Assembly (NCBI GenBank): GCA_964016885.1 | Contig: OZ024761.1 | Coordinates: forward strand, 15,810,001 to 15,874,000 | Direction of reading: 5' to 3' | Length of the DNA: 64,000 bases | Source of the DNA: Eledone cirrhosa | Lineage: Eukaryota | Part shown: piece by piece, positions 26,447 through 39,867 of the stretch | How positions within the stretch are numbered: the stretch's first letter is position 1 | How the letters are laid out: each line of letters opens with the position of its first letter | Notes under the pieces: model-generated | The model's input: the letters and a program-made list of their open reading frames with translations, nothing else | Database searches by the model: none | What the model was told of the DNA's origin: nothing | Made by a program: the position numbers and the translations under genes

Positions 26447-26511
26447 TATTTCATTATACATATTTCAGGGATACCACATTAAATTATGGTATGCCTTCAT
26501 CAGACAAAATA
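26447..26511 (-). ncRNA. Minimal type I hammerhead ribozyme motif, intact core
   Basis: Minus strand: ATTTTGT-CTGATGA-AGGCATACCA..TGGTATCCCT-GAAA-TATGTA-TA-ATGAAAT. Stems I and II pair; the cleavage triplet is AUA. Confidence 0.75.
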
Positions 26512-26732
26512 TATATATATATATATATATTCATGCAGACTATATATATAAATGAAAAGTATAGAAATTATTGTAGCAAGAAGCCAACAGTATTCCATGA
26601 CTATAACGTCAATATATATATATATATCAAAGGTATATATATATATATTGAGTTAGAAACTCAATATAGTCTCTTACAATAAAATAGGTCTAGGAAAGAG
26701 ATTTTTCCGAGCCGTATATTATAATTGAATAT

Positions 26733-27187
26733 AAAAGAAAAACGAACTCAGATATATAGATATATGTGTTCAAATCGTAAGGGACCAGATCCGCTAAGGT
26801 GAACAGAATACTACAGACAATAGGGTTTGCCAGACTCAATTTAAGAATAAATCAAGAAAATAAATACAAACCGGAATTGTGGTAACTACCAAATCACCCG
26901 GACAGCTTTTGGTACTTCTATTTCGCCAAATTAATTGTGAAGAGGAATACCAATTCTTGCTCATTAGTGAGAGAAGAATTAGTATCCTGGACACTTCTAA
27001 GTATATTAAAAAACTGAATAGTGTGCGTATATATAATAATGCACGTGGTATTTGAACTTAGCGTGTCTCTCACAAACTCACACCACTAGAAATAGCAGCC
27101 GGGTTTACTCGACATTTGAATAAGCTCAACAAAATGTCCATTACGATTTGAACACATATATTTATATATCTGTGTTCGTTTTTCTTA
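26733..27187. mobile_element. ~52-bp inverted repeat with ~350-bp spacer (Penelope-end-like relic)
   Basis: aagaaaaacgaactcagatatat...gtgttcaaatcgtaa.ggac and gtcc.ttacgatttgaacac...gttcgtttttctt. A degenerate CTAATGA...GAAA motif lies inside on the minus strand (~26920-26970). Confidence 0.6.
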
Positions 27188-27214
27188 TTTATATATATAT
27201 ATATATATATATAT

Positions 27215-27390
27215 CTAAGGCGGGTAAAATTCCCGAGATCCATGGACGAGTTCTCTCCAGCGGTCTCTGTCCCTCATTATCGCTGCCATGTCCTGCATCT
27301 CCAACAGACCAGTGTCTGTCCTTAGGGCATCAACATATGTCAACCTTGGTCTTCCTCTTCTAGTGTGTCCATGTAGGGGCTCCCAAAGGA
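27215..27390 (-). mobile_element. 3' end of a third RTE-like LINE family
   Basis: Reverse complement of 63255-63422 ([26 protein letters not shown]). Confidence 0.8.
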
Positions 27391-27495
27391 TATATATATA
27401 TATATATATATATATATATATATATATATATATATATATATATATATATATATATATATATATATATATATATATATATATATATATATATATAT

Positions 27496-27991
27496 ATATT
27501 GTTATGCTTTGGGAGGGTCATGTTGCCAATAAGAAACACACGCACCAGTTGCTTTCACTCCAATTTATTATAAATTAAATTTATAAATTTCCGGTTGGTT
27601 GGTTGGTTGGTTCCATAACCGGACGGTTGTTCATATATTGTCAAAGTTCTTTCATTATACATTCTGTGACCTCTTCAGTGACTGGGGATTATTTTCTTTG
27701 TTTTTGTGCAACACACACAACACACACAAAAACAAGATGGCGTAGGACAGAATAAAGGAGAGGCACAAAAACAAAGAAAAGAATCACCAGTCACTGAAGA
27801 GGTCACAGAATGTATAACGAAAGAACTTTGACAATATATGAACAACCGTCCGGTTATGGAACCAACCAACCAACCAACCGGAAATTTAGAAATTCTTAAA
27901 TTTATAAATTTAATTTATAATAAATTGGAGTGAAAGTAACTGGTGCGTGTGTTTCTTATTGGCAACATGACCCTCCCAAAGCATAACAATA
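27496..27991. mobile_element. ~190-bp inverted repeat with ~100-bp spacer; each arm has a hammerhead-like motif
   Basis: Arms are 27496-27685 and 27787-27991. The motif GTCA-CTGAAGA-..-GAAA-GAAC-TT-TGAC is at 27790-27832 (+) and 27640-27682 (-). Confidence 0.8.
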
Positions 27992-28236
27992 TCGGTTTCA
28001 ACACACGTTTTCAGATAAAGAATCTTGCTAAACAAATTCAGAAACGAAATATATATATATATATATGAAATACTGTTGGCTTCTTGCTCACAATAATTTC
28101 TATACTTTTCATTTATATATATATATATATATACAGTATTTCATATATATATATATATATATACATATACATATACATATATACATATACATATACATAT
28201 TTATATTTATATCTATATTTATATATAAATTAAAGG

Positions 28237-28413
28237 CCGATGTGTCAGATTTACCCTTATGCCTAGGTGTACTTAAGCACAGGGCCCCGCTGGTCAGGGA
28301 GATCGCATCTTCCTGCCAAAAATAGTTTTTAACGATGAATTTTTCAAATGTTAGGGGCCTCATAACTTAACTATCACAGGGCCTCATTTGTCCTAAATCC
28401 GGCATTGCACATC
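28237..28413. mobile_element. Short MITE, hAT-like ends
   Basis: cgatgtgtcagattta ... taaatccggcattgcacatcg, with internal cacagggccc/gggcctc motifs. Confidence 0.5.
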
Positions 28414-36900: not shown

Positions 36901-37796
36901 ACAATTGTTAGCCATGTACATGTATATGTCATCGTTGGCGGCTCACCATTCTGAAGTGCCGGGTGATCCCTGTGAGGGTACCTGGTTGTTGCAGCGCCTT
37001 AGTCTCGCCATCACTCCTGGCAATGTCGCCAGCATGTTGGCTTGCCTCAAAGTGTCCCATTGACCTTTATGATGTGCGGCTGATTGTCGCACTTGGTGGT
37101 GAATTGATGGTCGTTTTAATTTTTGTTTTGCTTCCTCTTTTCTTCTCTCTTTTATGCGTTTGTATTTATGTTTATCAACGACATTATATTTGTAAAAGTA
37201 CCAGTAATGCACTGGGTAATTGCTGGCCTTGTGCCTAAAGTAGAAACAATTATATTTGTAATGTTATTCTGAAAGAATTGTGAGCAATTTATAATGTTAT
37301 TTATAAAAATGTGAATAAAATACCGCCATATATAATGTCAAAAAAATAAACAAAAACATATGTAAAAAATAATTAAAATATACTATTATTATTAATGTGA
37401 ATCTGATGTGCTGCCTGCAGAATCTACTGTTGATAAATATTTACTGCGCTGACTCAGACAAAACCCGGATGTTGGATACCGACCATTGCCAAGTGCTAGG
37501 ATTACAAGATAAAAATTTCATTGTGACATGCATAGTTATTTCCCTTGAAAATTCTGTTGGTATTGATACCATGTGTAATATTTCTGCGATTAGTTTATTG
37601 AGCATCACCTCCCCATGTCATACCATCGCAGGGTTAATTCACTCCGCACACCTCTCAGCTGCTGCTGACACTTATTTTTAGCTGGGTTAACTGGAGCTAT
37701 GTAAAATGAATACGTGAAACCTATGGCAATACGATTGTAAGGCCAACGTCTTAACCACTAGGCCACATACCTTATCTTCTCTCGCTAAGCAACAAT

Positions 37797-38197
37797 AATA
37801 ATTGTTTCTACTTTTGGCACAAGGCCAGCTATTACCCCAGTGTATTACTGGTACTTTATTTTATCGACCCCGTAAGGATGAAAGGCAAAGTTAACCTCGG
37901 CGGGATTTGAACTCAGAATGGCAAGGGCCGTAACTCTATGCGTCAAAGCATGGTGTCCGACCCTCTACCGATACTGCCAATTCACCTAATAATAATGGTT
38001 TCTACTATAGGCACAACAGAAATTTGGGGAGTGAGGAAAGTCGATTAAATGTACCCCAGTACATTACTGGTGCTTTATTTTATCGACCCCGTAAGGATGA
38101 AAGGCAAAGCTAACCTCGTCGGGATTTGAACACAGAACGAAAGGGGCTGTAACCCTATGCCACAAAGCATGTTGTTCGACACAGCTAATCCATCGCC
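37797..38197 (-). mobile_element. Two tandem SINE family A copies
   Basis: Two cores (37850-37915 and 38065-38130) separated by (AAT)n. Confidence 0.85.
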
Positions 38198-38259
38198 AAC
38201 AACAACAACGACAATAATAATAATGAAATAAATATAAAATCAATTAAATAAATATTTGG

Positions 38260-38547
38260 TTGATTTGGAGAATTTGTAATTGTAGTTGCCACAATGCAGA
38301 TAACTATAAATAAAAATTTAAATCATGTGAAGTACCCCCATGGATACGAAAAATAAAGAGATACACTTACAGGGAATTGAACCAGGCATTGGAGATTGTG
38401 TGGTTTGACTCCCCACTGACATCTCTGTCCACATTTTACTGTCACCAAGGATACTTTTCTTCCATTTATTCAACTATAATTTATAGCCATCAACTATTAT
38501 TGTACTTATCTGCATTGTGGCAACTATAATTTCAAATTTCAAATCAA
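38260..38547. mobile_element. Possible MITE with ~40-bp inverted ends
   Basis: aatttgtaattgtagttgccacaatgcagataa and ttatctgcattgtggcaactataatttcaaatt. Confidence 0.55.
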
Positions 38548-38694
38548 TTGACTTCTGCATGAGAGTATAGTTGCTTTAGTTCTTTTTGTTGTCACAATGT
38601 TTGTTAGTCCACTGGGTATTCGCCATCCAGAGGAACACACCATCTACCAAGGTATAAGATCCTGAGTTTTATAAACACCAAATACATAGAAGCA

Positions 38695-39020
38695 TTTTGT
38701 TAAAACGTTGGGCTTACAATTGTGAGGTTGTGAGTTCCATTCCTAGACAGAGCTGTATTGTGTCTTTGAGCAAGACACTTTATTTCACGTTGCTCCAGTT
38801 CACTCAGCTATATAGAAATGAGTTGCGACATCACTGGTGCCAAGCTGTATCGGCCATTGCTTTTCCCTTGGATAACATTGTTGGCATGGAAAGGGCAGGC
38901 TGGTTTGTATGTGTGACTGCTGCTCTTCCATAAACAACCTTGCCTGGATTTGTGCCTCAGAAGGGAACTTTCAAGGTGCAAATTACATGGTCACTTCAGA
39001 CTGAAGGGGGTCATTACTCT
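38695..39020 (+). mobile_element. CORE-type tRNA SINE with a distinct tail
   Basis: B-box-like gagttccattcc, then CORE-like ttgagcaagacactttatttcacgttgctccagttcactcagcta. Confidence 0.75.
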
Positions 39021-39802
39021 TTAAAATACACACGCACATATATACATAGTAATTAGCCATACACCTTGAAAAATACTTTCATGTGGGCTTTTTGATTAGG
39101 ATAGCAAGTTCCATCATCAGAGTTTGTCGACTCAAAGTTGTTTCAAATGCCCTGTTTTTGCAACAAATGAGTGCTCTACCGTGTATTTGAAATCTGTATA
39201 TCACAAACTGTGTTGTGGCCTCTTCCTATATAATGTGTGTTTGATCATTCGAGAGTGCAATCTTGTATTACAAAAGAACAAGCCCTCGATATATAAACAT
39301 AGAAGTAATACTATATATGCTTTAGCCCTTTAGTTACCAGCTCTGGTTCTATGAAATAAAACCATCCATTTATAATTTATATAAGAACTTTACATAAACT
39401 TACTATCTTAGTAATGAAATACATAATTTTAATAAATCCCTCAAAATTCTTCATTAATTAATTAAATTAGAGAGTATTTCATTAGTAATGGAGTCATGAA
39501 AGGGTTTCACCTGAGGAATTTTCAACCCAAGTATGGCTGCAGTGAGAGCAGAAGCTATACACAAGTTGACAGTATATTGAATTCATCCTTTGGACTGAGT
39601 GCTGTAACAACTTCAGGTATAACCTTCCAGTTTTTTATCACAACGGCTTATTTTAAATCTTCTGTGATTTTAACATATCCGACACTAATTTGCATAATAG
39701 ACTAAATAAATTTAATAACCCCACTATCCGGGAGCTTCCAACAGAAATGGTCGCATTCTCTAAGGGTATGTCAATATTTATTTATAAAATTGATCTATAT
39801 TA

Positions 39803-39867
39803 TATTTTATCTGATGAAAGCGCACCATAATTTAACTTGGTGTCCTTGAAATATGTATAATGAAATA
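39803..39867 (+). ncRNA. Minimal type I hammerhead ribozyme motif, intact core (paralogue of 26447-26511)
   Basis: TATTTTAT-CTGATGA-AAGCGCACCA..TGGTGTCCTT-GAAA-TATGTA-TA-ATGAAATA. The 3' flank is shared with the 26.4-kb copy. Confidence 0.75.

What the first reader, a model, noticed from the sequence alone, without database searches (positions are those of the whole stretch)
26447..39867. Paralogous hammerhead ribozymes with compensatory stem II changes
Seen: two copies (26447-26511 on -, 39803-39867 on +) have an intact core CUGAUGA...GAAA...UA and share their 3' flank. Stem II is AGGCATACCA/TGGTATCCCT in one and AAGCGCACCA/TGGTGTCCTT in the other. Pair 2 is G-C versus A-U, pair 6 is U-A versus C-G, and pair 5 is A-U versus G-U; the C-C mismatch is retained in both. 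Known: minimal type I hammerheads with a tiny, near-palindromic stem III occur in Penelope-like element termini and in metazoan retrozymes, and often cleave as dimers. Inference: this is a self-cleaving RNA family whose fold was under selection. No Penelope RT or GIY-YIG ORF is visible in the window, so these copies would be non-autonomous or relic.
Basis: partly seen in the sequence, partly recalled or inferred. Interest (0 to 1): 0.75.

Follow-up and report, generated by a model that had tools for sequence, protein, structure and literature searches.

The report
Penelope hammerheads with conserved pyrimidine mismatch
The two motifs are leftover ends of a very common jumping gene (about 30,000 copies in this animal genome) that carry a known type of RNA predicted to cut itself in pairs, and this branch keeps one odd unpaired spot in its stem that is likely a contact point.

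Summary
Both hammerheads are real, at the stated places, with the stated pair changes. They are not a duplicated pair. They are separate 5'-truncated ends (pLTRs) of two subfamilies of a Hydra-clade Penelope-like element, with 28,579-32,907 copies and intact RT + GIY-YIG ORFs elsewhere.

Selection acted on the source elements: N7 varies and stem pairs covary. Genomic copies mutate in the core no less than elsewhere (1.6% vs 1.0%). Stem III cannot close in a monomer but is self-complementary, so cutting likely needs a dimer. No cutting was shown.

What is unusual: 238 of 241 copies with an AU(N4)AU stem III keep a pyrimidine-pyrimidine mismatch at stem II pair 4, across families only 46-48% identical in protein. 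None of 17 long-stem relatives from metagenomes has it. Copies end about 50 or 140 nt past the cut site, and 30 of 34 inverted pairs have one end of each kind.

This scan noted the mismatch before on other DNA of this genome (e1-8670794, e1-9970313). Verdict: a new variant of a known kind, modest interest.

The parts
26447..26511 (-). Hammerhead A (subfamily AGGCAUACC). C3 at 26503, predicted cut after 26455, stem III AUAUGUAU, C.C at stem II pair 4
26407..26511 (-). Insertion A: 5'-truncated 3' end of the element. It starts within about 18 nt upstream of C3 (boundary blurred by (TA)n up to 26521) and has the short end, about 50 nt past the cut site, joined to (TA)n
39803..39867 (+). Hammerhead B (subfamily AAGCGCACC). 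C3 at 39811, predicted cut after 39859, C.C at stem II pair 4
39641..40000 (+). Insertion B: about 170 nt of 3' UTR, hammerhead, and the long end (tail) about 140 nt past the cut site, joined to (TA)n
39864..39869 (+). AATAAA at +5 to +10 from the cut site, overlapping the 3' strand of stem I (the same motif is in copy A)
   Evidence: sequence; enrichment
31863..31927 (-). Third hammerhead, GGUCAUAGCC family. C3 at 31917, predicted cut after 31872, stem III AUAUAUAU, C.C at pair 4. Its close relative GGUCACAGCC flanks a Hydra-type ORF in L283
26162..26325 (+). 3' end of a related family (GGACGUAC type), truncated just before G12 so that the 5' half of the hammerhead is missing
   Evidence: family assigned by eye from its 3' flank

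Best explanation
The two motifs are separate, 5'-truncated 3' ends of two subfamilies of a Hydra-clade Penelope-like retrotransposon, and each carries a type I hammerhead that is predicted to cut only when paired with a second copy and is likely inert at these two loci. Shown: full elements read hammerhead - 188 nt - ORF (RT, CxCX5C linker, GIY-YIG) - long 3' UTR - hammerhead, with a 3.7-4.0 kb repeat unit, often with an inverted truncated copy and with (TA)n at the ends. Inferred: the protein nicks (TA)n and starts reverse transcription inside the RNA at two sites, about 50 and about 140 nt past the ribozyme cut site, on RNA whose hammerhead is still uncut. One start is used for each arm of an inverted insertion, and early stops leave stubs such as A and B. 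Inferred: in tandem source transcripts two hammerheads pair through the self-complementary stem III, perhaps helped by the element's protein, and cut slowly. That trims multimeric RNA and separates the ORF from the AAUAAA just past the cut. The fixed pyrimidine mismatch at stem II pair 4 is likely a contact for a tertiary fold or for the protein.
For: Copy number is 28,579 flank-anchored and 32,907 by 3' flank alone, with controls of 0. pLTR-ORF-pLTR structure is seen in L044 and in loci L383-L412, with 16 direct spacings of 3,666-4,034 nt. Hydra motifs are read in the L407 ORF against Craig 2021 section 11. Of 78 metagenome loci with homologous ORFs, 57 carry a sense-strand hammerhead and one more has only an antisense hit. 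In 86 flank-anchored copies N7 is U48/G19/A14/C5, while the other core positions match in 81-85 of 86. On 29 haplotypes 96.5% of cells pair and 19 cells change on both sides, with 0 of 500 shuffles as high; slid controls pair 29-50%. P(A15.1-U16.1) in the monomer is 0.001, and stem III forms a self-duplex. Ends fall in two classes: 75 of 135 copies at +46 to +57 and 50 at +137 to +149; 30 of 34 inverted pairs have one short and one long end (the long class in that count spans +75 to +174). This fits the two RT starts and uncut template found for the anole element (PMC11167929). Mismatches in copies are 16/996 at core sites and 12/1162 at non-core invariant sites, p=0.26.
Against: No cleavage or transcript was seen. 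Rfam hammerhead models do not score either copy. Pfam finds no RT or GIY-YIG in the L044 ORF, and only 1 of 40 homologs hits each family, so the domains are read from motifs and by-eye likeness to Hydra-1_Obim. On the stricter measure, pairs with a change on both sides are not above shuffles (4; 124 of 500), and the haplotypes are related. Pair 10.1-11.1 is A-U rather than the usual G-C and is mismatched in 11 of 79 copies; pair 8 is often unpaired. No cut footprint: only 25 copies genome-wide have (TA)n directly before the cut site, and about 4 of 106 start near it. In the anole element the ribozyme is dispensable for insertion in vitro.
Confidence: 0.8

Rival explanations
1. The hammerhead-like fold is kept mainly as a protein-binding or packaging structure (or as DNA promoter and terminal sequence) and rarely or never cuts.
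For: Inserted DNA nearly always keeps the uncut motif (93 of 106 copies) and shows no cut-site footprint. Stem III is unstable as a monomer. Ribozyme mutants do not affect insertion in the anole element. A fixed C.C mismatch suits a recognition site.
Against: Only N7, the free core position, varies among subfamilies, while catalytic positions stay fixed. The same core and a cleavable U-H site are kept in homologs at about 35% protein identity. Related PLE hammerheads do cut in vitro.
Confidence: 0.12
2. A and B are the two arms of one 13-kb inverted insertion, or a host-kept ribozyme pair that acts together on a local transcript.
For: They face away from each other, and one has the short end and the other the long end, as true pairs do. 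One true pair (L014) joins arms of two subfamilies.
Against: The search for pairs was limited to 6 kb, and the widest found was 4.1 kb. 26 of 34 pairs differ by at most 2 letters in the hammerhead, while A and B differ by 8. A has (TA)n on both sides. No element ORF lies between them, and the gap is filled with unrelated repeats. Opposite strands cannot lie in one RNA as two sense hammerheads.
Confidence: 0.04
3. They belong to a non-autonomous retrozyme family that spreads through small circular RNAs.
For: Most copies are short (73 of 117 uncensored copies extend under 100 nt upstream of C3). Tandem hammerhead arrays of other families exist in this genome.
Against: 5' ends are spread continuously out to the ORF. 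No short tandem arrays of this family appear among the listed places. The same hammerhead flanks intact ORFs.
Confidence: 0.04

Closest known systems
Hydra-clade Penelope-like elements and their hammerheads (Craig et al. 2021, PMC8557442; section 11, passages, File S1/S2 rows seen; includes Hydra-1_Obim)
   Same: C-terminal GIY-YIG, DKT, CxCX5C linker, CxxC and CxH motifs, no CCHH, (TA)n targets, hammerhead in the pLTR with no unpaired extra base and a palindromic stem III.
   Different: RWR in place of RWK. The unit is 3.7-4.0 kb rather than under 3 kb. Stem III is AU(N4)AU rather than AC..GU. A Y.Y mismatch sits at stem II pair 4, absent from the 21 Hydra rows of File S2 that I saw. This hammerhead is not that of Hydra-1_Obim.
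[quoted passage not shown]
   Same: Type I, long stem II, palindromic stem III for dimers, thousands of dispersed solo copies, opposite-strand pairs 100-700 bp apart, covarying families.
   Different: Their consensus has an unpaired base after A9 and G10.1-C11.1; here 10.1-11.1 is A-U with no extra base, and stem III is 8 nt. By eye none of their 56 aligned motifs has C.C at pair 4 (one has U.U).
Poseidon element of Anolis (Frangieh et al. 2024, PMC11167929; parts 1-2 of 4 seen) and the PLE 'tail' (PMC3846280, passages)
   Same: Two discrete 3' ends downstream of the hammerhead, AT-rich targets, uncut RNA as template, tail on only one of the inverted pLTRs.
   Different: The tail is about 90 nt here against 30-40. 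Both ends lie in the 5' UTR, before the start codon at +188, not inside the ORF.
Animal non-LTR retrozymes (bioRxiv 10.64898/2026.07.22.740005, part 1 of 5; PMC7229834, listing only)
   Same: Type I hammerheads related to PLE pLTRs.
   Different: Retrozymes are short tandem, non-coding units. This family is dispersed and tied to its own ORF.

Membership tests
Type I hammerhead ribozyme | Core CUGANGA / GAAA / UH around a three-way junction | tested here: met
Type I hammerhead ribozyme | Stems I and II form and covary | tested here: met
   (both-side cells 19, 0 of 500 shuffles; pair-count measure 124 of 500)
Type I hammerhead ribozyme | Match to an Rfam hammerhead model (library coverage, not the definition) | tested here: not met
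   no hit at E<=10
Type I hammerhead ribozyme | Self-cleavage after H17 | not testable with these tools
   needs an assay; no cut footprint in DNA
PLE dimer-type hammerhead | Self-complementary stem III, unstable as a monomer | tested here: met
   P=0.001 for the monomer, self-duplex -2.2 kcal/mol; variants AUAUAUAU, AUAUGUAU, AUAUGCAU
min-HHR consensus of Cervera 2014 | Unpaired base between 9 and 10.1, and G10.1-C11.1 | tested here: not met
   A-U in 66 of 79 copies, no extra base; not filed under that consensus
EN+ Penelope-like element | Single ORF with RT and C-terminal GIY-YIG between pLTRs | tested here: met
   by motifs; Pfam gives no hit for L044 and 1 of 40 homologs per family
EN+ Penelope-like element | 5' truncation, inverted copy, tail at one end | tested here: met
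Hydra clade | DKT, CxCX5C linker, CxxC and CxH, no CCHH | tested here: met
   read in the L407 ORF
Hydra clade | RWK motif | tested here: inconclusive
   RWR in this family; RWK in sister family L283
Hydra clade | Insertion into (TA)n | tested here: met
   3' junctions listed
Hydra clade | Placement in a tree with published Hydra reference proteins | not tested
   references seen only in the supplement and compared by eye
Nematis/Neptune clades | CX2-5CxxC linker and CCHH in the endonuclease | tested here: not met
   absent from the L407 ORF; my first reading, dropped
Non-LTR retrozyme | Short tandem non-coding units, each with a hammerhead | tested here: not met
   dispersed copies linked to an ORF

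The most novel reading that the evidence does not exclude
One branch of Hydra-clade elements has evolved a distinct hammerhead subtype. An obligate pyrimidine-pyrimidine pair after three base pairs of stem II is the docking site for an unrecognised tertiary or protein contact. The AAUAAA that overlaps stem I makes the ribozyme a switch: uncut RNA is polyadenylated and used for translation and reverse transcription, while dimer- or protein-triggered cutting removes the poly(A) signal and limits the element's own activity.
Probability: 0.25. Interest if true: 0.6.

Novelty: new variant of a known kind. Interest (0 to 1): 0.33.

Why it matters
What the hammerhead does in Penelope-like elements is still open; it is dispensable for insertion in vitro in the one element tested. 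This family offers tens of thousands of copies, many intact sources and natural variants. A fixed mismatch between freely covarying pairs is a single-base handle for testing whether a tertiary or protein contact controls cutting. The two sharp 3' ends, one on each arm of inverted insertions, extend the two-start model to a distant clade. For the host, the two window copies are likely neutral relics.

Tried and rejected
Rfam found no hammerhead hit on the narrow regions or among the 150 of 280 window hits that were listed. A DNA search of the genome with copy B returned nothing because it skips very common words. Pfam and PDB sequence searches did not name the protein, and viral contigs held no relative.

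Nematis was my first clade call and was dropped after checking the Hydra motifs. An excess of copies starting at the cut site was tested and not found. Protection of the core in genomic copies was tested and not found (3 of 86 rows dropped as chimeric or mis-anchored). One search used a structure string off by one column in stem II and is disregarded; one search is the correct one.

Hits starting TCCCATAG, antisense inside the ORF, were dropped as scan artefacts. ORF links for L418 and L423 are doubtful (distant or interrupted) and are not used for the clade claim. Lunse et al. 2017 (dimer cleavage of PLE hammerheads) is not held; I saw only its title, and it could describe this mismatch.

Searches gave no paper on this mismatch or this family. 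Figures are not visible, the rest of File S2 and part 3 of the Cervera supplement were not read, and the preprint's supplements were not seen.
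Full report
Observation. Both motifs are present as described. Copy A is 26447-26511 (-) and copy B is 39803-39867 (+), with predicted cuts after 26455 and 39859, and 103 of 114 letters identical including the 3' flank. A pairing-aware scan found three motifs in the window against a mean of 0.01 in 100 simulations; the third, at 31863-31927 (-), is of another family. 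Rfam has no model that scores A or B, and folding z-scores are only about -1.7, so the case rests on core sequence and comparison.

Copy number and source. The genome (3.0 Gb; the nearest named protein relatives in the tree are from Argonauta, so likely an octopod, an inference) holds 12,169 exact core-anchored matches, 28,579 flank-anchored matches and 32,907 matches to the 3' flank alone, all with control 0. Fetching long copies gave hammerhead - ORF - hammerhead units (L044). A protein search listed 60 matches, 58 of them near full length and most without stops, and many of the 30 fetched are flanked by this hammerhead. Sixteen direct spacings run from 3,666 to 4,034 nt, and the cut site lies 188 nt before the start codon. 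The ORF has RWR, DKT, YRDD, a CxCX5C linker, a GIY-YIG-like stretch without CCHH, and C-terminal CxxC and CxH. These are the marks of the Hydra clade in Craig et al. 2021 (section 11). I first called it Nematis; earlier scan notes pointed to Hydra, and I checked the motifs myself. Pfam does not recognise the protein. No such ORF lies in the window or 10 kb either side.

What A and B are. A keeps about 18 nt upstream of C3 and B about 170 nt. B-type hammerheads flank their own ORF, 81% identical to the A-type ORF (L043), so the eight differences between A and B are mostly subfamily marks. Of 135 copies aligned, 75 end 46-57 nt past the cut site and 50 end at 137-149 nt, mostly joined to (TA)n. 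In 30 of 34 inverted pairs one arm has the short end and the other a longer end. A has the short end and B the long end, but they are 13 kb apart, of different subfamilies, and A has (TA)n on both sides, so I read them as separate insertions. The two ends match the PLE tail (PMC3846280, passages) and the two internal RT starts shown for the anole element (PMC11167929), except that the tail is about 90 nt and lies before the ORF.

Selection. In 86 copies picked by flanks only, N7 is U48, G19, A14, C5, and every other core position matches in 81-85. Stem II pairs 2, 5 and 6 switch between pair types, and stem III stays self-complementary. On 29 haplotypes (the two window copies and 27 of the 28 haplotypes seen at least twice, out of 101) 96.5% of cells pair and 19 change on both sides, with 0 of 500 shuffles as high and slid controls at 29-50%. 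The number of pairs with double changes (4) is not above shuffles (124 of 500), and the rows are related. Pair 1 and pair 8 are loosely kept. Individual copies are not protected: 16 of 996 core sites against 12 of 1,162 non-core invariant sites differ, p=0.26, in 83 copies after dropping 3 chimeric or mis-anchored rows. Selection therefore acted on transposing sources.

The mismatch. Other pattern searches brought in further families (the patterns fixed the AU(N4)AU stem III but nothing in stem II). Among 241 distinct copies with that stem III, pair 4 is C.C in 210, C.U in 23, U.C in 5 and other in 3. All 23 recurring stem II frames have a mismatch there, while pairs 2 and 5 pair in 23 of 23 and pairs 3, 6 and 7 in 22 of 23. 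Families with linked ORFs (L283, L413, L417) are 46-48% identical in protein to this family and group with it at 94/82 support, short of the tool's star, next to Argonauta proteins (L413 and L417 are partial rows). Same-clade families in this genome with AC..GU stem III lack the mismatch. Of 78 metagenome loci with homologous ORFs, 57 have a sense hammerhead, and none of 17 long-stem clusters has Y.Y at pair 4. Nor do the 21 Hydra rows of Craig File S2 that I saw or, by eye, the 56 motifs of Cervera Fig. S3, apart from one U.U. One origin followed by long retention is the simplest reading. Retention while the neighbours change argues for function, but which function is not shown.

Mechanism. 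Monomer stem III has probability 0.001 and forms a self-duplex. Cutting as a dimer is therefore likely, as reported with low rates for related motifs (PMC4209133), perhaps protein-assisted as in the anole. DNA copies come from uncut RNA: 93 of 106 copies picked by the 3' flank keep the whole motif and about 4 start near the cut, and only 25 in the genome have (TA)n directly before it. An AAUAAA or AUUAAA lies within 25 nt after the cut in 17 of 40 metagenome motifs (shuffle mean 2.6, max 9; 0 of 40 at +31 to +55) and in 24 of 70 motif variants of this genome (shuffle mean 9, max 16), mostly at +4 to +6, overlapping stem I. The variants of this genome are related. Cutting would part the ORF from that signal; this is inference, and an A-rich structural contact would explain the motif as well. 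No RNA data bear on it.

Novelty. Hammerheads in PLE pLTRs, solo copies, opposite-strand pairs and covariation are in print (PMC4209133, PMC8557442), and a different Hydra family is listed for an octopus. Searches found no paper on this family or the fixed mismatch, but figures were not visible and Lunse et al. 2017 was not available. This scan noted the mismatch before on other DNA of this genome. I rate it a new variant of a known kind, interest 0.33.

Noticed in passing
window 26374-26384 and 26530-26540: Copy A sits at the centre of an inverted repeat: an 11-nt non-repetitive flank plus (TA)n on each side, as if the target flank was copied in reverse during insertion.
   Followed up: no
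window 31557-31617 (+): A fourth, degenerate hammerhead-like motif with a 7-bp stem I and a damaged stem III; 5 exact pattern matches in the genome, control 0.
   Followed up: partly
L014 (G000:C1:17021609-17021849): One inverted insertion joins arms of two different subfamilies (each hammerhead recurs elsewhere, L016 and L017), one with the short and one with the long end, which suggests two RNA templates in one event.
   Followed up: no
G000:C1:5540685-5543704, 9968460-9972123, 14044535-14051131: Tandem arrays of short-stem hammerheads with periods of about 420-490 bp, retrozyme-like, of families other than this one.
   Followed up: no
L333-L338, L345, L346: A 758-aa Hydra-type ORF family for which my scan found no evidently linked standard hammerhead within about 1.5 kb upstream or 2.8 kb downstream in 8 of 8 loci; three loci held hammerhead calls that look like other families.
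   Followed up: no
window 22751-22873 (+): U5 snRNA, 93.8 bits.
   Followed up: no
window 31926-33557 (+); similar pieces at 19841-21062 (-): LINE-type RT fragment with a PHD finger between RT motifs (Pfam RVT_1 2e-30, PHD 8e-6); the third hammerhead lies just before it on the other strand.
   Followed up: partly
window 17538-18413 (-): A 291-aa hydrophobic ORF that looks like a seven-helix receptor exon by eye; no Pfam hit.
   Followed up: no
window 4498-16900: A 45-bp tandem array of about 270 copies with a 4,229-codon open frame on the minus strand.
   Followed up: no
window 25900-25960, 26541-26773, about 28030-28100: Three copies of another short (TA)n-flanked repeat end beside copy A, possibly the tail of a further element.
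   Followed up: no
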